IMG/VR virus record: IMGVR_UViG_3300014682_000009
Direction: 5' to 3' (one strand)
Length of the DNA: 7,154 nt
Origin: a virus
Taxonomy: Duplodnaviria > Heunggongvirae > Uroviricota > Caudoviricetes
Shown: in pieces, positions 123-7,115 of the stretch
Numbering within the stretch: position 1 is the stretch's first letter
Layout: the number at the start of each line of letters is the position of its first letter
Position numbers and translations under genes: made by a program
The notes under the pieces: generated by a model
The model's input: only the letters and a program-made list of their open reading frames with translations
Database searches by the model: none
Told to the model about the DNA's origin: nothing

Positions 123-770
123 TCAGCGACCAATCACCACAACCTGACCACCGTCCCCTTCGTCTGCCGTGCTGATCTCCTGAGAAACCACGCGTGACCC
201 CACGCGCATTTCCCCGTACAGAACAGGCAGAACATTGCCCTGGGCAACCATGTTATCCAGTGAGGAGAAATAGGTGTTCTGCTTACCGTTATCCGTTGTC
301 TGTGTACGGGGAGTTCTGGCTTTCGGTGCCAGCATCTGCGCCACACCACCGAGCACCATACTGGCCCCCGCACCATACATTCCTGTAATTGCGGCAGCCC
401 CCAACCAACCTGCGGGGTTCCACCATGCCACCGCAATCAGCGCCGCCCCCAGCACAGCCTGAAAAAGACCGCCACTTTTGGCTCCCGCCAGACGCGGCAC
501 AATGTGGATCACGGCACCATTTGCCAGCGATTCATTAAGACGGGCTGATAATTCGTTTTCGCCTGCATCACGCCCGGCAATGCGCACCTGATACCAGCCA
601 TCGCTCAGTTTCTGACGAAACGACGGAAGCTGCGTGGCCAGCGCCCGGATGGCTTCAGCCCCCGTTTTCACACGAAGGTCGATGCGGCGACCAAATCGTT
701 GCAAATCCCCGTAAAGACAGATGCGTGCCATTCCCGGTGACGCCAGAGGGAGTGTGTGCGTCGCTGCCAT
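123..770 (-). CDS. I: Tail tip assembly protein I (lambda gpI family)
   Basis: 215-aa ORF; N-terminus MAATHTLPLASPGMARICLYGDLQRFGRRIDLRVKTGAEAIRALATQLP and C-terminus ...VSQEISTADEGDGGQVVVIGR match lambda gpI from memory. AGAGGT SD about 11 nt upstream of the ATG. Overlaps the 3' end of K by 103 nt in another frame, as in lambda. Confidence 0.92.
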   Translation of the reverse strand: MAATHTLPLASPGMARICLYGDLQRFGRRIDLRVKTGAEAIRALATQLPSFRQKLSDGWYQVRIAGRDAGENELSARLNESLANGAVIHIVPRLAGAKSGGLFQAVLGAALIAVAWWNPAGWLGAAAITGMYGAGASMVLGGVAQMLAPKARTPRTQTTDNGKQNTYFSSLDNMVAQGNVLPVLYGEMRVGSRVVSQEISTADEGDGGQVVVIGR

Positions 771-1411
771 TTGTCGGTATACCTCTCTCGTTTACTCAGT
801 TGTTCAGGAATATGGTGCAGCAGCTCGCCGTCGCCGCAGTAAATGGCGGCATGATTCGGTACCGATGAACCAAAGCAGCACAGCAGCACGTCGCCAGGCT
901 GCGCCTCTGTCAGTGCAACACGGTAAAACCCCGTCGCCTCCATATTGTCAAGATAGAGATTCTGACCGTTACGCCACCAGTCATCCCCGCGATGAAAATC
1001 CGGCATCTCAATCCCCGCCAGATGGTAAGCATCCCGGAACAGTGTGTAACAGTCCGTCACCCCGTGCTCAAAGCGCCGCCCGGTAAGATGCGGCACACAG
1101 CGGAACTTGTGAATCGCCCCCCGGCAGACCAGCCACCACGGCAAATCACTCTGCACCTGCAGCCGCCGGTCAGCCTCACTCAGCCAGGGCAGACCACCGG
1201 GGTGGCTGTGGACCAGCGCCACAATCTCACCCTGCATCTCTGCCCGCAGCCAGTCCTCCGGAGCCATCCGGAAATACGCCTCCGGCTCACCGGAGATATT
1301 CACGCAGGGAAAATATCTTTCTCCCTCCGGCGTTCTCACCACGAAGCCGCACGACTCCGCTGGCGCACATCGCCGGGCGTGCGCCAGAATCGCTGATTCT
1401 GTCTCTGTCAT
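668..1411 (-). CDS. K: Tail tip assembly protein K (lambda gpK family) with MPN/JAMM-like and NlpC/P60-like motifs
   Basis: 247-aa ORF. JAMM-type motif H-S-H-x7-S-x2-D in ...VALVHSHPGGLPWLSEADRR; NlpC/P60-type Cys/His signature in ...VTDCYTLFRDAY...NHAAIYCGDGELLHH. The ATG at 1411 lies 5 nt after the L stop with no obvious SD, so translational coupling is likely; an internal Met49 start (199 aa) is the alternative. Confidence 0.88.
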   Translation of the reverse strand: MTETESAILAHARRCAPAESCGFVVRTPEGERYFPCVNISGEPEAYFRMAPEDWLRAEMQGEIVALVHSHPGGLPWLSEADRRLQVQSDLPWWLVCRGAIHKFRCVPHLTGRRFEHGVTDCYTLFRDAYHLAGIEMPDFHRGDDWWRNGQNLYLDNMEATGFYRVALTEAQPGDVLLCCFGSSVPNHAAIYCGDGELLHHIPEQLSKRERYTDKWQRRTHSLWRHREWHASVFTGICNDLVAASTFV

Positions 1412-1416
1412 GGGAT

Positions 1417-2115
1417 TTACTGCGAAAGTTTGTTTATGGAAAGGAAGCCGCCAAAGTTGCCGACGTTATTGCGGAACTTACAACCGCTCAGGCATTTGCT
1501 GCATTTATCCTTCGTGATATCGGACGTTGGCTGGTCATATTCATCCGCGACCGCAGGACCGTGATAACCGCACTCATCGCCGCGATAGGTCCAGGTGCAG
1601 GTGTTGGCCAGCATGATACGTCCCGGAAAAACAGCGCCGTCCGTTTCCGTCGGCGTGGACAGTACAAAAGAGGCACTCACCGCGCTCAGTTCGCTGCACT
1701 GCTCAATGCGCCAGCGGCTGATCACCTCCTGCTCTGGATCGGCGTCACTGTTTCCGTTGACGAAGTTCACCGCATCCAGAAAACGGGCGTAAACCTTACG
1801 CCGGACCACCGTTCCGCCGACCAGACTCTGCAGATCTTCCGCCATCCCGGTGACCATACCGTACAGGTTAGAGACTTTCAGCGTTGGCCTTGCACTGGCT
1901 CCTTTGCCGTTCATCTCAAATCCGCTTCCCTGAATGGGATAGGCCTGATACTGCCGCCCCTGCCAGGTGACTGGTTCACCTTTTTCGTTCTGCTCATTAC
2001 AGAAGAAATAACGATCTCCGCCGACCTCTGTCAGATCAATTTCCCAGAGCACGACCAGCGCGGATTGCTCCGTTTTAGTGCACTCATTGAGTGTTTCCTG
2101 CTGTATATCCTGCAT
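1417..2115 (-). CDS. L: Tail tip protein L (lambda gpL family) with C-terminal Cys4 cluster
   Basis: 232-aa ORF, MQDIQQETLNEC...FGGFLSINKLSQ, near-identical to lambda gpL as I recall it and the same length. Four C-terminal cysteines (CTWTY, ECGY, CSKC, LSGC). Start ATG overlaps the M stop (ATGA). AGAGGT SD upstream. Confidence 0.94.
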   Translation of the reverse strand: MQDIQQETLNECTKTEQSALVVLWEIDLTEVGGDRYFFCNEQNEKGEPVTWQGRQYQAYPIQGSGFEMNGKGASARPTLKVSNLYGMVTGMAEDLQSLVGGTVVRRKVYARFLDAVNFVNGNSDADPEQEVISRWRIEQCSELSAVSASFVLSTPTETDGAVFPGRIMLANTCTWTYRGDECGYHGPAVADEYDQPTSDITKDKCSKCLSGCKFRNNVGNFGGFLSINKLSQ

Positions 2116-2456
2116 CAGTGAGTGACCTCTTCAAAGGTACAGTTAAAATCGGTATACATGGCATTATCCGAAATGCTCCACTCCCTGCAGACAACCCGGA
2201 CAGTCCTGTTGTGTTTTGGCGGACGCCACAAAAAAGCACGAATCCCGGCATGACGGGATAAAAAACTGTCCAGCGCGGCACGGGAATATTCATCTGTGAC
2301 ACGAAATACCGGTTTAAACGTTTTCAGATCCGCATTCAGACCACCAGCCCGTCGCTGTTCATATCCGTCACCAAACTTTACCGTAATAACTGATGGCTTT
2401 CGTGTCGTCTCCATCCCCTCACGGGGGATCCAGTTAAAAACTTCAGGCTCAGGCAC
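2115..2456 (-). CDS. M: Minor tail protein M (lambda gpM family); start uncertain between GTG 2456, ATG 2471 and ATG 2414
   Basis: Translation ...VKFGDGYEQRRAGGLNADLKT...FLWRPP... aligns with lambda gpM (VRFGDGYSQRAPAGLNANLKT...FLWTPP). GTG at 2456 has a strong GGAGGA SD 7 nt upstream (2469..2464) and overlaps the tape-measure stop by 8 nt. The ATG at 2471 sits inside that SD and has no SD of its own. The TTG at 2501 used by the ORF track is unlikely. Confidence 0.85.
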   Translation of the reverse strand: MPEPEVFNWIPREGMETTRKPSVITVKFGDGYEQRRAGGLNADLKTFKPVFRVTDEYSRAALDSFLSRHAGIRAFLWRPPKHNRTVRVVCREWSISDNAMYTDFNCTFEEVTH

Positions 2457-5400
2457 TGTACAATCCTCCATCCCGACGCGATGACTGCATAATTGACACA
2501 ACCCTGCTGTCGATCAGATCCACCAGTCCCCTGGCTGAGCGCGCATCTATCTCGCCATTGCTCCCTTGATTCTGAATGCTGATGTGATACACGGGAGAAT
2601 AAACAAATCCACCGCCACCATTCACATTTCCAATGGCCCTGACCCCAAGAGAGCCGTCCGCTGCCCGTGTCAGTGGCATGATTGCTTCAGGCCCGGCCTC
2701 GCCCATCAACCCGGCACCTTTCGCAAAAGCAAAATACGTCGGTGTATCCACAATAGTGTTACTGTAAGCACTCAGATTTGCCGATGTGTAAACACCACCT
2801 TTTGCGTTTGCCACTGCCCCCGAAATCCATCCGCCGACCGTACCAAGCCACCCTCCGGCACCGGAGAGTGATTTCAGTCCGTTAACAATGGCTGCATTCA
2901 TCAGAATTTTTGAAACTTCCCGGAGAACTGAACTCCCCCAGTTCCTCCAGTCCACAACATTCCCGGCCAGTGCATCGGAAATATTTGATACCAGCCCGTC
3001 CATCGTGGAAACGACAGCATCTGCCGCCTGTGAAGCATAATCGGTGGCACTGTCTGCCCAGTTGGTCAGTCCCTCCTGGAGTCCGGCATTCCAGTTATTA
3101 CGTAAAGCATCGGCCTTTGCATAATAATCCTGCTGATCGCTGAGACGCTCTTCCAGATATTTTTTATTCAGTTCTTTCTCCTGTTTCCACAGGGCTTCTT
3201 CAATTTCTCCGGCCTGATACTGTCTCAGCAGCTCGTTATTTTTCTGCTCAAACGCCTGCCGGATACTCCACATTTCCTGGAGTCGTTCACGCATCCGTGA
3301 GCCTTCACCATATCCCAGCAACTGCGCGTCGTCAGATGCCCGGGCACTGGCATTACTGTCCGCCAGGCTGCTCTCATACGCAGCAAGCTGCTCACGAATC
3401 TTTTTCTGGTCGATGAGTGCTGCATTCTGCAAAAGCGTTTTTTTCTGCGCTTCTGACAGGGTTGATAATTCGCCCTGACTGACCTGATATTTCATCTTAG
3501 CCAGTTCAGTATTCTGCCCTGCCAGTGCTATTTGTTCTTTTTGCTGTTTAATCAGCCGTTTATAAATATCTTCTGTTTTTTCAGCTTCGGTCTTTTTATG
3601 CGCTTTTGGTTTATTTGCCTGGTTATTTCGCCAGGCATCCAGTGAGTTATTGATATAATTCTGTCTGGCTGTCTGATACGCCTCTCCCACAAAGCCGAGA
3701 TCATCCGCAGCATAACCCAGGCGGGCACGCTCACGGGCTTCCCCCTTCAGGCGGGACAGAGCCAGTTCGCGCTCGCTGTTATTCAGTGCTGTCTGCTGTT
3801 TATCATCCAGGGTTGCCTGTGGTAGCCGTAACGGTACATTCACCATCCCCTGTCGCTGCTGAAGTAATTCATTACCGAGCCCGAGAAGGCGATTAAACTC
3901 GGTATGCTGCCCATTCATGATCAACAGGGACTGATACGCTTTGTTTTGTTCCGCTGCCTGTTGACGGATCAACGCCACCCGTCGCTCCTCCAGCCCGGCA
4001 AGCACATCCTGAATGGATTCCGCTTTGCCCTGCATTTGTGTGAGACGGGACTGTTCAACTGCCAGTTGATTTGTTGCTTCTGCAAGCCCTTCTGTGACAG
4101 TTTTTACCGACGTCATGTGGTTAATCATAAAACCGTTATCGGTTGTCCAGCCCGGGTTTGCCAGCACATACTGATAGCCAGCAATTTTTTCCTGTAAGGA
4201 TTTAATCTTACTTTTCTGCTCGTCAATTAACCTGTTTTGCTCATCAAGTGCCTGCCGCGTCTTTTCCTCATTATCTGACGCTTCAGGAAGCGACATTGCC
4301 GACGTTTTCTGGCGAATTTCGTCGATTGTTGCGGCATACTGGCGTGCAGATTCTCTGGCCTGCTCCTGATTCTGATACATCGTGTACCAGGCCGTCGCCC
4401 CCAGCATGACGAGTCCCGGCACACCACCAACCAACCCCAGCGCACCACTTAACAGACGACTCCCCACTGACGTGACAGTATTCAGCGTTGTCTGTGCCGC
4501 TGTTCTGGCCGCAATATTACGGGTAAGTGACGCCTGGGCAGCAGCCAGTTTCGCTTCTGCGGCTGCCTGCCTTTCGGTACCGCGAGCAGCAACAACCGCC
4601 TGTTGCGCACGATAAACCGCCGCACGCGCCCTGGCTGTTGCTATCTGTGTCCCCCGGAGCTGCGCTTCCGCAAGAGCCACTTCGTTTCTGGCTGCAGTAA
4701 TTAATCCGGCAGTTGCAGATCCAGCAGAAGACGCCATATTGCCAAAATATCGGGCTACCCCGACGGCAACCAGAGCACCAGCAGCGGTTGCCACAGTGTC
4801 AATATTGCCTGCAATACCATTCAGCACACCGGAGAGCGTCTTCGTCACTCCGCTTGCCTCGTTCGCACCACCAACCCAGGCCATAAAGGCGTTTTCAACT
4901 TTGGTTGCAGAGGATGAAACCGTATCAGGCATTGCCGCATATTCATCACGTAATGCCCCAAGCTGACTAATCAGTGCAGGAACAACCTTATCGGCGGTCA
5001 GTTTTCCGTTATCCGCCATGGCCTTCAGATCCTTACGGGCAACCCCCATTCCCGCAGCCAGCGCACGAATAACACGATCGCCGTTCTCATTCACCGAGTT
5101 AAACTCTTCACCGCGCAGCACTCCCTGCGCCAGTGCCTGACTGAACTGCGTGATCACCGAACTGGCTTCTGCTGTACTGGCACCGGATAATTTCAGGCCC
5201 GTGGAGATCGCCTCGGTGACTTTCAGTACCTCCTCAGAACTGTAACCATACTCCCGCATGGAAGCTGCAGAACGGGCAAAAAGGCTGGCGTTATCAGAAA
5301 ACGCCGTCCCCGTTCTCTGGCTGATCGCCATTAATTCACGTTGTGATACCTGAAAATCATCACTGGACTGTGAGGCCTGCTTCAGACGGGCATTTACTGA

Positions 5401-5682
5401 ATTCCACTCATCGGCGAGAGAAATAAGATGACCGGTAGCAAAAGCCCCGGCAAATGCCCCCGTCATATTCAGTGCCGAAGATTTAGCTGTATTTATCTGA
5501 TCCGTCACTTCTGCCAGTGCACGCCGCATTTCACGGGATGCAGCAGCGGACTGCCGGCCTCCGTTCTGCATGGTACGGTAGTAATCCTGCCCCATACGCG
5601 AAGCCCGGGAGATCTCTGACTGGAATGACCGGGAATTTGCCGAGATTTTAATAATCAGTTCACGTAATGTCGCCACACTCAT
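2449..5682 (-). CDS. Tail tape measure protein (tail length determinant; lambda gpH functional equivalent, divergent sequence)
   Basis: 1077-aa ORF placed between the G/G-T chaperone genes and M. Long Ala/Gln/Glu/Lys-rich predicted helical stretches, two hydrophobic segments (around ...TVATAAGALVAVGVARYF... and ...LLSGALGLVGGVPGLVMLGATAWY...), and a Gly-rich C-terminal region ending ...RDGGLYSA that resembles the lambda gpH C-terminus (...RDGGLFS...). ATG at 5682 with GGAG immediately upstream (short spacer). Confidence 0.93.
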   Translation of the reverse strand: MSVATLRELIIKISANSRSFQSEISRASRMGQDYYRTMQNGGRQSAAASREMRRALAEVTDQINTAKSSALNMTGAFAGAFATGHLISLADEWNSVNARLKQASQSSDDFQVSQRELMAISQRTGTAFSDNASLFARSAASMREYGYSSEEVLKVTEAISTGLKLSGASTAEASSVITQFSQALAQGVLRGEEFNSVNENGDRVIRALAAGMGVARKDLKAMADNGKLTADKVVPALISQLGALRDEYAAMPDTVSSSATKVENAFMAWVGGANEASGVTKTLSGVLNGIAGNIDTVATAAGALVAVGVARYFGNMASSAGSATAGLITAARNEVALAEAQLRGTQIATARARAAVYRAQQAVVAARGTERQAAAEAKLAAAQASLTRNIAARTAAQTTLNTVTSVGSRLLSGALGLVGGVPGLVMLGATAWYTMYQNQEQARESARQYAATIDEIRQKTSAMSLPEASDNEEKTRQALDEQNRLIDEQKSKIKSLQEKIAGYQYVLANPGWTTDNGFMINHMTSVKTVTEGLAEATNQLAVEQSRLTQMQGKAESIQDVLAGLEERRVALIRQQAAEQNKAYQSLLIMNGQHTEFNRLLGLGNELLQQRQGMVNVPLRLPQATLDDKQQTALNNSERELALSRLKGEARERARLGYAADDLGFVGEAYQTARQNYINNSLDAWRNNQANKPKAHKKTEAEKTEDIYKRLIKQQKEQIALAGQNTELAKMKYQVSQGELSTLSEAQKKTLLQNAALIDQKKIREQLAAYESSLADSNASARASDDAQLLGYGEGSRMRERLQEMWSIRQAFEQKNNELLRQYQAGEIEEALWKQEKELNKKYLEERLSDQQDYYAKADALRNNWNAGLQEGLTNWADSATDYASQAADAVVSTMDGLVSNISDALAGNVVDWRNWGSSVLREVSKILMNAAIVNGLKSLSGAGGWLGTVGGWISGAVANAKGGVYTSANLSAYSNTIVDTPTYFAFAKGAGLMGEAGPEAIMPLTRAADGSLGVRAIGNVNGGGGFVYSPVYHISIQNQGSNGEIDARSARGLVDLIDSRVVSIMQSSRRDGGLYSA

Positions 5683-5722: not shown

Positions 5723-6411
5723 TCACTGAGACACTATTAAAAGCGCGTTTTCCAGTCCGGCAAATGGATCTGATACGCCTTCTGTCTGCTCCTTCTCCCA
5801 CTGAAGAAGCGCATCATTCAGTGGCACTTTGACCCCCTGCGCACCGTAAACAGCTGAAACAATCTGGGCAGCCCGGATATCAGCCCGTTCGTCCCCCAGC
5901 GGGCTGAACCTGTCAAATTCTGCCCACATCATGATTTCTGATGCGGACATTTCCCGGCGTAACTCTGACAATGTGCGCCCCATCCTGAGCGCCAGCATCA
6001 TCAGAAAACGCATCCCCGGAAGCTCTACTTTTTTTTAACCTCGCCGGCATCACTGATCAGTTCCAGAGACTGCCGAAGAAGCCGCGCATGCACCGGGCCA
6101 TACACGGCAATCACCTGTTCACGATCATCCTCTGAAAATACAGGTTGCAGTCCGGTATCACACAGAACATCAATGAACAGTTCAACATCTGCCTCCAGAT
6201 TTCGGCGGGCGCGCTCCGCAACGGATAACGGTGTCTCATCATCTTTTGCTTTAACGATCTCCTGCCAGCGCAACCAGGCTTCTGCAGAAGGTTCCCGTAA
6301 TACAACCGTTGCCCCTTCCCATTCAGGCACATCAACAGTTTTATGGCGAAACCCCGACATCGTTGCCAGTGCCAGATTGCGGATATTTTTAGTCATCACA
6401 TCTATCCTCAT
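5723..6411 (-). CDS. GT: G-T fusion chaperone produced by programmed -1 ribosomal frameshift (T segment 5723-6034 in the -1 frame)
   Basis: The 96-aa T ORF (5723..6013) is in the -1 frame relative to G. The -1 frame is closed by TAA at 6037..6035 and open from 6034, so the shift must occur in the heptamer at 6034..6028. Predicted junction ...GEVKKK|VELPGMRFLMMLAL... Confidence 0.85.
6025..6411 (-). CDS. G: Tail assembly chaperone G (lambda gpG functional equivalent)
   Basis: 128-aa acidic ORF immediately downstream of V (TAATG stop/start overlap at 6413..6409), ending ...GEVKKK-TAG with the slippery A_AAA_AAG at its last two codons; position and frameshift architecture are diagnostic of G. 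Confidence 0.88.
   Translation of the reverse strand: MRIDVMTKNIRNLALATMSGFRHKTVDVPEWEGATVVLREPSAEAWLRWQEIVKAKDDETPLSVAERARRNLEADVELFIDVLCDTGLQPVFSEDDREQVIAVYGPVHARLLRQSLELISDAGEVKKK
6028..6034 (-). other. Slippery heptamer A_AAA_AAG (X_XXY_YYZ) for the G-T -1 frameshift, abutting the G stop codon
   Basis: Minus-strand reading GAG GTT AAA AAA AAG TAG, part of an 8-A run (plus 6029-6036 is T8); the zero-frame stop TAG is at 6027..6025, directly 3' of the heptamer. Confidence 0.8.
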
Positions 6412-7115
6412 TAACTGACGGTAACAGTGCAGGAAGTGGAGGTCACCTTGTTAACAGGGCTTGCTGAATCAGAAATCTCGCAGGTATACGCACCGGCATC
6501 ACCTGATGCTGCTGATGCCTTACTGAATGTTGCCGCCGTCTGTCCGGAAACAGGAGAACTACCTTTCTTCCAGACATAAGAATAAGGCGGCACACCACCG
6601 GCAGCCTCAACCACCATTTCGAGTTTCGCTCCGGCAGAAACCTGCAGCGTGCTGTTTAAATCGACCTTCACTTTCAGCGGCTCTGTCGTCAGCACAGGTT
6701 TACCTTTCAGGCGCAGGGAAAACGTTGCAGCCACAACACCATTAGTTCCTGCAGACCAGGTATGCTGACGCACCTCTGCCATAAAGGTAAATCCGTTGCC
6801 TGACGGAAAAATAACTTTAAAGCCATACGTGGTGTCATTGTCATAGGCACTGCGCAACGCGTTCTGGGCAGCATTGAGGTAAAAGTTGCCTGACATGGAA
6901 ATCTCTGACGCGGCACCAAGGCCGTTAATATTTTCCTGCTCAACAGAACACAGCGTGGTGACATCAATATCCTGCTTTTGTCCTGCGGTAAACTGCACCT
7001 CTTTGATTGTACAGCTCAGGCCAAGATAGCTGGCAGAATCCAGGGTTTCTGCTGTTACCGGTGCAGACGAAATCATAATTTTCGTCAGTTGCGAACGCTC
7101 AAAATTAGAGGACAT
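6411..7115 (-). CDS. V: Major tail (tube) protein V with C-terminal Ig-like domain
   Basis: 234-aa ORF with a strong AGGAGA SD 5 nt upstream of the ATG at 7115, sitting immediately upstream of G/G-T. The C-terminal ~90 aa (…KVDLNSTLQVSAGAKLEMVVEAAGGVPPYSYVWKKGSSPVSGQTAATFSKASAASGDAGAYTCEISD…TVTVS) has the look of a bacterial Ig-like domain, as at the C-terminus of lambda gpV. The N-terminal domain is not lambda-like in sequence. Confidence 0.9.
   Translation of the reverse strand: MSSNFERSQLTKIMISSAPVTAETLDSASYLGLSCTIKEVQFTAGQKQDIDVTTLCSVEQENINGLGAASEISMSGNFYLNAAQNALRSAYDNDTTYGFKVIFPSGNGFTFMAEVRQHTWSAGTNGVVAATFSLRLKGKPVLTTEPLKVKVDLNSTLQVSAGAKLEMVVEAAGGVPPYSYVWKKGSSPVSGQTAATFSKASAASGDAGAYTCEISDSASPVNKVTSTSCTVTVS

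What the first reader, a model, noticed from the sequence alone, without database searches (positions are those of the whole stretch)
668..1411. K ORF is 247 aa and carries both JAMM-like and NlpC/P60-like motifs; the short classical start would truncate the JAMM domain
The full ORF starting 5 nt after the L stop has an N-terminal region followed by an HxH-x7-S-xxD JAMM-like motif and then a Cys/His NlpC/P60-like signature. The classical lambda K annotation is 199 aa as I recall, which corresponds to starting at Met49 here and would cut off the N-terminal part of the MPN fold. The gene arrangement argues that the long form is real. Whether both peptidase-like activities function during tail tip assembly or infection is not obvious from sequence.
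Basis: partly seen in the sequence, partly recalled or inferred. Interest (0 to 1): 0.4.

Follow-up and report, generated by a model that had tools for sequence, protein, structure and literature searches.

The report
Full-length lambda-type tail protease K
This is the ordinary tail-tip assembly gene K of a lambda-like E. coli prophage, a 247-residue protein with two protease domains that has been described since 2006; the shorter 199-residue version in the classical lambda record comes from one base missing in the 1982 reference sequence.

Summary
Window 668..1411 on the minus strand is a 247-aa ORF. It starts 5 nt after the stop of L. It has a complete JAMM motif (E19, H68-x-H70-x7-S78-xx-D81) and an NlpC/P60 triad (C121, H187, H199). 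Pfam finds both domains above threshold. An AlphaFold model (pLDDT 96.8) matches JAMM deubiquitinase-like folds and NlpC/P60 folds.

The 199-aa lambda annotation aligns to Met49 and removes a helix, two strands and the catalytic Glu.

In J02459/NC_001416 the upstream ATG is out of frame, because one G is missing after position 14266. Every independent lambda sequence I checked has that G:
- 29 fetched loci carry it.
- 1,793 E. coli genome records match the version with G exactly; none matches the version without it.
- A published lambda gt10 variant table lists the same insertion.

Position 49 is Ile in most relatives, so the internal start is not conserved.

The architecture was published in 2006 (TAPK = JAB + NlpC/P60, next to the ubiquitin-like protein I). 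RefSeq already annotates 247-aa versions in prophages. A 2025 conference report says gpK cuts the ubiquitin-like domain off gpI. The role of the NlpC/P60 domain remains open. The finding is already known and of low to moderate interest.

The parts
668..1411 (-). Gene K, complete CDS: 247 aa, 28.4 kDa. [quoted passage not shown]
   Evidence: ORF list. 94% aa identity over all 247 residues to corrected lambda K. phrog_30 'minor tail protein', E 6.7e-163. RefSeq annotates the 98%-identical prophage copy as a 744-nt 'C40 family peptidase'.
1118..1402 (-). JAB/MPN+ (JAMM) metalloprotease domain, residues 4-98.
   Evidence: Pfam PF14464, 53.1 bits. Foldseek matches P. furiosus JAMM1 5ld9/5lda (target-normalised TM 0.66-0.68, rmsd about 2.5), AMSH, CSN5 and Rpn11. 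phmmer hit to 2kks, E 3.7e-5.
1355..1357 (-). Codon of Glu19, the catalytic Glu of the JAMM motif. It lies upstream of Met49.
   Evidence: E in 86 of 87 homologues. It is lost if translation starts at Met49.
1169..1210 (-). JAMM zinc-binding motif, H68-x-H70-x7-S78-x2-D81.
   Evidence: Regex match at residues 68-81. H68, H70 and D81 are present in 87 of 87 homologues; S78 in 83 of 87, with Thr in the rest.
1265..1267 (-). Met49 codon, which corresponds to the start of the classical 199-aa lambda K annotation.
   Evidence: The position is Ile in 56 of 87 homologues and Met in 12. It is ATC in E. albertii and ATT/ATC/ATA in more distant prophages.
1279..1283 (-). GGAGG, 11 nt upstream of Met49. 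It resembles a Shine-Dalgarno site but encodes part of P43-E44-A45. Probably fortuitous.
   Evidence: Some lambda-hybrid records annotate it as an RBS. It is absent in the Citrobacter relatives and most of the more distant ones; one has a partial GGAG.
1277..1277 (-). The G (minus strand) that is missing from the lambda reference record between positions 14266 and 14267. It keeps the first 48 codons in frame.
   Evidence: Alignment A1. Counts of the two versions. Published '14266 C>CG'.
740..1081 (-). NlpC/P60 (C40, papain-like) cysteine peptidase domain, residues 111-224. Triad codons: C121 at 1049-1051, H187 at 851-853, H199 at 815-817.
   Evidence: Pfam PF00877, 47.9 bits. Foldseek matches MepS/Spr, LytE and Acd33800 (target-normalised TM 0.6-0.69). 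C121, H187 and H199 are each present in 86 of 87 homologues.
668..770 (-). 103-nt overlap between the 3' end of K and the 5' end of I, in different frames.
   Evidence: Lambda has the same overlap. In this DNA the I frame (codons 14-34) has pN/pS 0.18 and the K frame 0.92.
123..770 (-). Gene I, 215 aa. Ubiquitin-like beta-grasp domain at residues 14-97 (nt 480-731), Gly100-Gly101 (nt 468-473), then the hydrophobic and plug C-terminal part. Probable substrate of the K JAB domain.
   Evidence: Pfam Lambda_tail_I, 85.1 bits. GG position. Iyer et al. 2006. gpI is resolved only from residue 101 in tails. Conference report of cleavage.
1417..2115 (-). Gene L, 232 aa, directly upstream. Its stop lies 5 nt before the K ATG, and no Shine-Dalgarno motif lies between them.
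   Evidence: Pfam Phage_tail_L, 334.5 bits. Upstream sequence 'TTCGCAGTAAATCCC ATG'.

Best explanation
Window 668..1411 (minus strand) is the complete gene K of a lambda-like E. coli prophage. It encodes a 247-residue, non-structural tail-tip assembly protease.

Translation most likely starts at the ATG 5 nt after the L stop. No Shine-Dalgarno motif precedes it, so ribosomes finishing L probably re-initiate there (inferred).

The N-terminal 100 residues form a zinc-dependent JAB/MPN+ isopeptidase-type domain. The C-terminal part forms an NlpC/P60 papain-like cysteine peptidase domain.

The JAB domain most likely cuts the N-terminal ubiquitin-like domain off the neighbouring protein I, after its Gly-Gly at residues 100-101, once I has docked into the J/L tip complex. 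This leaves the C-terminal plug part of I in the tail, and K is released. That step rests on a 2006 prediction, a 2025 conference report and structural data showing only I residues 101 onward. It is not shown here.

The NlpC/P60 domain keeps an intact Cys-His-His triad and is probably also active, but its substrate is unknown.

The 199-residue K of the classical lambda record is an artefact. One G is missing after position 14266 of J02459/NC_001416. That puts the true start out of frame and forced annotators to use the internal Met49.
For: The ORF and the 5-nt spacing are confirmed.

Domains and fold:
- Both Pfam domains score above their gathering cut-offs.
- An AlphaFold2 model built with 87 homologues has pLDDT 96.8 and pTM 0.91. 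Residues 1-48 form helix 3-15 and strands 21-27 and 30-36.
- Foldseek hits split into JAMM DUB-like folds (5ld9, and 5lda in complex with the ubiquitin-like SAMP2; AMSH, CSN5, Rpn11) and NlpC/P60 folds (MepS/Spr, LytE).
- Catalytic residues are conserved in 87 homologues of 33-58% identity: E19 86/87; H68, H70 and D81 87/87; C121, H187 and H199 86/87.

Start codon:
- In these homologues 10-34 residues (median 20) precede the Glu column, so their N-termini match the long form.
- Position 49 is Met in only 12 of 87. It is the non-initiator ATC even in E. albertii, which is 87% identical.
- pN/pS for codons 1-48 is 0.30, and 22 of 40 variable sites are third positions.
- The 199-aa forms score 23.1-23.3 bits on Prok-JAB, below the cut-off of 25. 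Corrected lambda K scores 52.3 bits.

Lambda reference error:
- The reference ATG at 14133 lies 143 nt, not 144, upstream of the annotated start.
- Alignment A1 shows a single missing G, and only in NC_001416 and OR974322.
- The G is present in 29 lambda-type loci. These include DE3, imm21, LC730321 (48,503 bp), PV340536 and about 24 low-coverage lambda contigs in unrelated assemblies.
- The 71-nt context with G is exact in 1,793 complete E. coli genome records. The version without G is exact in none.
- The MutaMouse lambda gt10 transgene lists '14266 C>CG' (PMC6760142).

Function:
- Iyer, Burroughs and Aravind 2006 describe TAPK as JAB + NlpC/P60 next to the ubiquitin-like TAPI. They predicted cleavage at the C-terminal Gly (PMC1779556).
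- A. [quoted passage not shown]
- gpK is absent from virions by mass spectrometry (PMC10721106).
- gpI is seen only from residue 101 (PMC11101478).
Against: - No protein-level evidence for the N-terminus of K was available to me.
- A GGAGG lies 11 nt upstream of Met49 in lambda-like alleles. Minor internal initiation therefore cannot be excluded there.
- The cleavage of I by K rests on a meeting summary, not on a paper with data.
- Nothing here shows that either domain is catalytically active, or what the NlpC/P60 domain acts on.
- I could not prove that the strain sequenced in 1982 carried the G. The marker check on LC730321 was uninformative.
- The 87 homologues were picked from hits whose match already began near the N-terminus. 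That slightly favours the long form, although all listed full-length hits of 35-50% identity behaved this way.
Confidence: 0.88

Rival explanations
1. Two isoforms are made from one gene: the 247-aa protein, plus a 199-aa protein started internally at Met49 from the GGAGG 11 nt upstream. This would resemble the nested in-frame products C/Nu3 and S107/S105 of lambda. The short form would act as an NlpC/P60-only protein.
For: GGAGG followed by 11 nt and then ATG is present in the window and in lambda-type alleles. Some curated lambda-hybrid records annotate it as the RBS of K. Nested starts are known elsewhere in lambda's late operon (general knowledge).
Against: The codon at position 49 is ATC in E. 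albertii and ATT/ATC/ATA/CTG in more distant prophages. The Citrobacter copies keep ATG but lack any Shine-Dalgarno-like motif. Met occurs in only 12 of 87 homologues. A product starting at residue 49 begins in the middle of the MPN fold, between strand 30-36 and helix 51-60. It would carry a half-domain lacking Glu19. An 11-nt spacing is longer than optimal.
Confidence: 0.07
2. The reference sequence is right for laboratory lambda. That strain would carry a real frameshift and make only a 199-aa K without a working JAB domain, so the JAB domain would be dispensable.
For: Four database records lack the G: J02459, NC_001416, OR474059 and OR974322.
Against: NC_001416 is the RefSeq copy of J02459. 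OR974322 carries the same coordinates and annotation and looks reference-derived. All other lambda derivatives have the G, including DE3, imm21 and imm434 hybrids, lambda gt10, K-12 lysogen isolates and spike-in contaminant contigs. None of the E. coli genome records holds the version without G. JAMM residues are invariant across the family. The reported gpK cleavage of gpI needs the deubiquitinase-like domain.
Confidence: 0.03
3. K is mainly a cell-wall hydrolase. Its NlpC/P60 domain would cut peptidoglycan during DNA injection, and the JAB-like part would be a non-catalytic scaffold.
For: NlpC/P60 enzymes are typically peptidoglycan endopeptidases, and the closest folds are MepS/Spr and LytE. 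There is a weak NCBIfam hit to 'putative phage cell wall peptidase' (21.5 bits, cut-off 81.9). The lambda enzyme that breaches peptidoglycan has not been identified (PMC11101478).
Against: gpK is not detected in virions by mass spectrometry and is not resolved in any tail structure, so it is not delivered to the cell wall. The JAMM motif is fully intact and conserved, unlike MPN- scaffolds. K has no signal peptide or periplasmic targeting that I noted.
Confidence: 0.05

Closest known systems
Bacteriophage lambda gpK (tail tip assembly protein K; RefSeq NP_040598, 199 aa as annotated)
   Same: It is the ortholog. Identity is 94% over all 247 residues once lambda's missing base is restored. The gene order V-G-T-H-M-L-K-I is the same, as are the 5-nt L-K spacing and the 103-nt K/I overlap.
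   Different: There are 16 amino-acid substitutions. The reference lambda entry is 48 residues shorter because of the 1-base omission. The surrounding prophage differs from lambda: H is 1077 aa against 853, and the G-T slip site is different.
[quoted passage not shown]
   Same: It has exactly the described architecture: JAB followed by NlpC/P60, encoded next to the ubiquitin-like TAPI and to TAPJ.
   Different: Nothing material. This is a typical member.
Archaeal and bacterial JAMM/MPN+ enzymes that cleave ubiquitin-like proteins (P. furiosus JAMM1 with SAMP2, PDB 5ld9/5lda; halophile desampylase)
   Same: The minimal MPN+ fold and the E...HxH...S..D zinc site are the same. There is a weak NCBIfam desampylase hit over residues 3-114. 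The presumed substrate is a beta-grasp domain ending in Gly-Gly.
   Different: Sequence identity is only 21-24%. Here the domain is fused to a second peptidase. The presumed substrate is a linear fusion (the ubiquitin-like domain followed by the rest of gpI), not an isopeptide conjugate. No E1-like partner is encoded nearby.
NlpC/P60 peptidoglycan endopeptidases (E. coli MepS/Spr, B. subtilis LytE)
   Same: The papain-like fold and the Cys-His-His triad are the same.
   Different: K is cytoplasmic and non-structural, with no export signal noted. Its substrate is probably a protein rather than murein. Sequence identity is 15-20%.

Membership tests
JAB/MPN+ (JAMM) metalloproteases (Pfam PF14464 Prok-JAB) | Profile match above the curated threshold | tested here: met
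   53.1 bits against a cut-off of 25, residues 4-98 on profile positions 4-103 of 114. The form starting at Met49 fails, with 23.1 bits.
JAB/MPN+ (JAMM) metalloproteases (Pfam PF14464 Prok-JAB) | JAMM motif E-x(n)-H-x-H-x7-S-x2-D | tested here: met
   E19, H68, H70, S78 and D81. They are conserved in 83-87 of 87 homologues.
JAB/MPN+ (JAMM) metalloproteases (Pfam PF14464 Prok-JAB) | MPN fold | tested here: met
   AlphaFold2 model with pLDDT 96.8. Foldseek matches 5ld9/5lda at target-normalised TM 0.66-0.68, and also AMSH, CSN5 and Rpn11.
JAB/MPN+ (JAMM) metalloproteases (Pfam PF14464 Prok-JAB) | Zinc binding and (iso)peptidase activity | not testable with these tools
NlpC/P60 (MEROPS C40) cysteine peptidases (Pfam PF00877) | Profile match above the curated threshold | tested here: met
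   47.9 bits against a cut-off of 23, residues 111-224 covering profile positions 1-105 of 105.
NlpC/P60 (MEROPS C40) cysteine peptidases (Pfam PF00877) | Catalytic Cys-His-polar triad in the papain-like fold | tested here: met
   C121, H187 and H199 are each present in 86 of 87 homologues. The fold matches MepS/Spr, LytE and Acd33800.
NlpC/P60 (MEROPS C40) cysteine peptidases (Pfam PF00877) | Peptidase activity and substrate | not testable with these tools
   I found no experimental data.
Lambda gpK / TAPK tail-tip assembly proteins | Orthology to lambda K | tested here: met
   94% aa identity over 247 residues to corrected lambda K. phrog_30, E 6.7e-163.
Lambda gpK / TAPK tail-tip assembly proteins | Position between L and the ubiquitin-like I in a siphophage tail cluster | tested here: met
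   V, G, T, H, M, L, K and I lie in order on the minus strand. Pfam hits for M, L and I. J follows in the 98%-identical prophage.
Lambda gpK / TAPK tail-tip assembly proteins | Needed for tail assembly but absent from the virion | not testable with these tools
   From the literature on lambda only: PMC10721106 and PMC12617516.

The most novel reading that the evidence does not exclude
Both peptidase domains are active and have different substrates. [quoted passage not shown] K would then be a dual-specificity maturation protease that times two steps of tail assembly. The evidence here does not exclude this: both catalytic sites are conserved in at least 86 of 87 homologues, and K is non-structural. 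Nothing here supports the specific second substrate.
Probability: 0.1. Interest if true: 0.55.

Novelty: already known. Interest (0 to 1): 0.2.

Why it matters
For this window it matters little. It is a correctly sized, typical K gene that RefSeq pipelines already annotate as 247 aa.

The useful by-product concerns the model phage. The lambda reference record (J02459/NC_001416, and entries derived from it) lacks one G after position 14266. As a result it presents K as a 199-aa 'C40 family peptidase' without its deubiquitinase-like domain and catalytic Glu.

Three kinds of work are affected:
- Constructs, CRISPR guides or mutants designed from the reference would treat codons 1-48 as an intergenic gap.
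- Structure predictions or proteomics databases built from it would miss the JAB domain.
- Variant callers report a spurious constitutional insertion, as already seen in a published table.

Correcting the record would agree with the emerging biochemical picture that K processes the ubiquitin-like domain of I.

Tried and rejected
- **Single-sequence AlphaFold2 model.** pLDDT was 34, which is unusable. I replaced it with the alignment-based model.
- **Programmed -1 frameshift fusing K to I.** The 103-nt overlap, phrog_28576 (a 399-position profile that both K and I match, apparently a K-I fusion family) and scattered K-I fusion proteins in the database suggested this. No X XXY YYZ heptamer exists in the K frame. 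The fusion entries are mostly single-member clusters of varied length, so I regard them as indel artefacts or pseudogenes.
- **Identifying the strain behind LC730321.** I compared 8 kb across the cI and S genes with the reference. The two are identical, so this says nothing about whether it is cI857 Sam7.
- **Explicit published statement that lambda K is really 247 aa.** Four text searches found none. Only the variant table entry '14266 C>CG' turned up. The Casjens and Hendrix 2015 review is not held, so such a statement may exist.
- **Internal start at Met49.** Considered because of the GGAGG upstream. Rejected as a conserved feature.
- **Triad and zinc-site geometry.** Model coordinates are not exposed to scripts.
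- **Sequence search of PDB chains.** Only weak single-domain hits came back (2kks, 8idc). No solved structure of a K homologue exists in that copy.
Full report
**What is in the window**

All large ORFs lie on the minus strand. They form a lambda-type tail gene cluster:

| Gene | Coordinates | Length |
|---|---|---|
| V | 6411-7115 | 234 aa |
| G | 6025-6411 | 128 aa |
| T | 5723-6013 | 96 aa |
| H | 2449-5682 | 1077 aa |
| M | 2115-2501 | 128 aa |
| L | 1417-2115 | 232 aa |
| K | 668-1411 | 247 aa |
| I | 123-770 | 215 aa |

The whole window is 98.3% identical to prophages in complete E. coli genomes, and 4,413 of 5,426 such genomes hold a match. In the best-matching genome RefSeq annotates K as a 744-nt 'C40 family peptidase'.

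**Checking the observation**

The finding's coordinates are right, but the gene is on the minus strand.
- The K ATG (1411-1409) follows the L stop (1419-1417) after 5 nt. No Shine-Dalgarno motif lies between them.
- The protein has Glu19 in 'AESCGF'.
- The JAMM motif is H68-S-H70-PGGLPWL-S78-EA-D81.
- The NlpC/P60 signature is C121 ('TDCYTL'), H187 ('PNHAAIY') and H199/H200.
- The second Met is residue 49.

Pfam finds Prok-JAB at residues 4-98 (53.1 bits, cut-off 25) and NLPC_P60 at 111-224 (47.9 bits, cut-off 23). The JAMM regular expression occurs in only 0.19% of shuffles of this protein.

**Structure**

A single-sequence AlphaFold2 model was useless, with pLDDT 34. With an alignment of 87 homologues the model reached pLDDT 96.8 and pTM 0.91.

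Residues 1-48 form helix 3-15 and strands 21-27 and 30-36. These are core elements of the MPN fold.

Foldseek hits against the PDB fall into two sets:
- JAMM/MPN+ enzymes: P. furiosus JAMM1 alone and bound to the ubiquitin-like SAMP2 (target-normalised TM 0.66-0.68, rmsd about 2.5), plus AMSH, CSN5 and Rpn11.
- NlpC/P60 enzymes: MepS/Spr, LytE and Acd33800 (target-normalised TM 0.6-0.69).

No solved structure combines both domains.

**Is the long form real?**

A full-library HMMER search found 2,794 relatives. The full-length relatives of 35-50% identity are 230-260 aa long and align from query residues 2-15 onward.

In an alignment of 87 of them:

| Residue | Conservation |
|---|---|
| G22, N38, H68, H70, D81, D120 | 87/87 |
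| E19 | 86/87 |
| C121, H187, H199 | 86/87 |
| S78 | 83/87 (Thr in the rest) |

- Between 10 and 34 residues (median 20) precede the Glu column.
- Position 49 is Ile in 56, Met in 12 and Leu in 10.

At the DNA level, the codon at position 49 is ATC in E. albertii (87% aa identity) and ATT/ATC/ATA/CTG in more distant prophages. The Citrobacter copies keep ATG but have no Shine-Dalgarno-like motif.

Among 14 distinct alleles, codons 1-48 have pN/pS 0.30. Of 40 variable sites, 22 are at third positions.

Starting at Met49 leaves only profile positions 63-103 of Prok-JAB and 23.1 bits, below Pfam's threshold. The RefSeq lambda K behaves the same way, with 23.3 bits. This explains why it is labelled only 'C40 family peptidase'.

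**Why lambda's K is 199 aa**

RefSeq lambda K is 14276..14875 and L ends at 14127. Lambda also has an ATG 5 nt after the L stop. It lies 143 nt, not 144, upstream of the annotated start, so it is out of frame.

The alignment shows one difference. NC_001416 reads GAGGC-TATTTCC, where the window and every other sequence except OR974322 have a base at the gapped position: GAGGCGTATTTCC in all but PhiR55_1, which reads GAGGATTATTTCC.

Of 218 phage records matching this region, only four lack the base: J02459, its RefSeq copy, OR474059 and OR974322. All other lambda-type records span 242 nt for the 241-nt query. These include DE3, lambda imm21 and imm434, KT232076, LC730321 (48,503 bp, one more than the reference) and PV340536.

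Further counts:
- The exact lambda context with the G occurs in 29 fetched loci. About 24 of them are low-coverage lambda contigs in unrelated genome assemblies. It is absent from only 2 loci.
- In complete E. coli genomes the 71-nt context with G is exact in 1,793 records. The 70-nt version without G is exact in none; the best match is 98.6%, which is one gap.
- The MutaMouse study lists '14266 C>CG' as a constitutional difference of the lambda gt10 transgene from the reference (PMC6760142).

With the G restored, lambda K is 247 aa and 94% identical to the window protein over its full length. PV340536 annotates it that way.

The most economical reading is a one-base omission in the 1982 record. 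I could not confirm the genotype of the strain originally sequenced. I found no paper that states the consequence for K.

**How it most likely works**

Iyer, Burroughs and Aravind (2006) described TAPK as JAB plus NlpC/P60, flanked by TAPI. TAPI has a ThiS/MoaD-like ubiquitin fold ending in a conserved Gly. They predicted that the JAB domain releases the ubiquitin-like domain by cutting at that Gly, possibly helped by the NlpC/P60 domain (PMC1779556).

In this window I carries Pfam Lambda_tail_I at residues 14-97 and Gly-Gly at 100-101.

Other published data fit this picture:
- Cryo-EM of lambda tails resolves gpI only from residue 101 (PMC11101478).
- gpK is not found in virions by mass spectrometry or in maps (PMC10721106, PMC12617516).
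- A summary of A. [quoted passage not shown] It adds that this happens only after gpI has joined the tip complex, which enforces the order of assembly (PMC12908700).

These steps come from the literature or are inferred. None is shown by my computations. What my data add is that both catalytic sites are conserved across the family, so both domains are probably active. The substrate of the NlpC/P60 domain is open.

**Rivals**

- Internal initiation at Met49 is conceivable in lambda-like alleles, because GGAGG lies 11 nt upstream. It is not conserved, and the product would begin in the middle of the fold.
- A truly frameshifted laboratory lambda is contradicted by all independent sequences.
- A cell-wall hydrolase role at infection conflicts with the absence of K from virions.

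**Comparison and verdict**

This is an ordinary member of the lambda gpK/TAPK family and meets every sequence-testable criterion. The two-domain architecture and its link to the ubiquitin-like protein I have been in the literature since 2003 and 2006. The 247-aa length is the standard automated annotation in prophages.

The only added value is the explanation of the 199-aa lambda entry, which is a database correction rather than new biology. Interest is low to moderate and the novelty class is already known.

Noticed in passing
window 668-770 (K/I overlap) and 123-770 (gene I), minus strand: Gene I has the opposite annotation problem. RefSeq PGAP and some phage records start I at a GTG (Val34) overlapping the K stop, giving 182-190 aa. 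That removes the first strands of the ubiquitin-like domain, which Pfam places at residues 14-97 of the long form. In the overlap DNA the I frame (codons 14-34) has pN/pS 0.18 and the K frame 0.92. A GAGAGG lies about 11 nt upstream of the long-form ATG. The long form with the 103-nt overlap is therefore probably the real one.
   Followed up: partly
window 668-728 (K residues 229-247), minus strand: The C-terminal tail of K, encoded inside gene I, is not conserved in distant homologues (mean column conservation 0.10 against 0.41-0.53 elsewhere). AlphaFold still models it as a helix at residues 230-243. It looks like an overprinted extension whose sequence is dictated by the I frame.
   Followed up: partly
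window 6028-6034, minus strand (3' end of G): Gene G ends ...GTT AAA AAA AAG TAG. The heptamer A AAA AAG sits in the G frame, and a -1 slip there reads into the T ORF (V-E-L-P-G-M-R-F-L-M-M...). Lambda's own G GGA AAG slip site is absent from the window. So the G-T frameshift is probably kept, but with a different slippery sequence.
   Followed up: partly
window 2449-5682, minus strand (gene H): The tape measure protein is 1077 aa, against 853 aa in lambda (the lambda length is from PMC12617516). By the usual length-ruler rule this predicts a tail roughly a quarter longer than lambda's.
   Followed up: no
loci L015-L027, L032-L036, L040, L042, L045, L064 (genome-contig hits): Many genome assemblies of unrelated bacteria hold low-coverage contigs with exact lambda sequence, some about 48.4-48.5 kb long. 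The species include Pseudomonas, Shewanella, Neobacillus, Bradyrhizobium and Streptomyces. These are most likely lambda DNA spike-in or reagent contamination left in public assemblies.
   Followed up: no
proteins P0017, P0031, P0059, P0087, P0100, P0106, P0116; phrog_28576: The databases contain K-I and L-K fusion proteins of many different lengths, mostly single-member clusters, and one PHROG whose 399-position profile both K and I match, apparently a K-I fusion family. K has no slippery heptamer, so these are probably frameshift errors or decaying prophages rather than programmed fusions.
   Followed up: partly
PMC6760142 Table 5 (lambda coordinates): The same variant table lists other constitutional differences from the lambda reference, for example 137 AG>A and 24583 TA>T. 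Some of these could be further errors in the 1982 record rather than lambda gt10 mutations.
   Followed up: no
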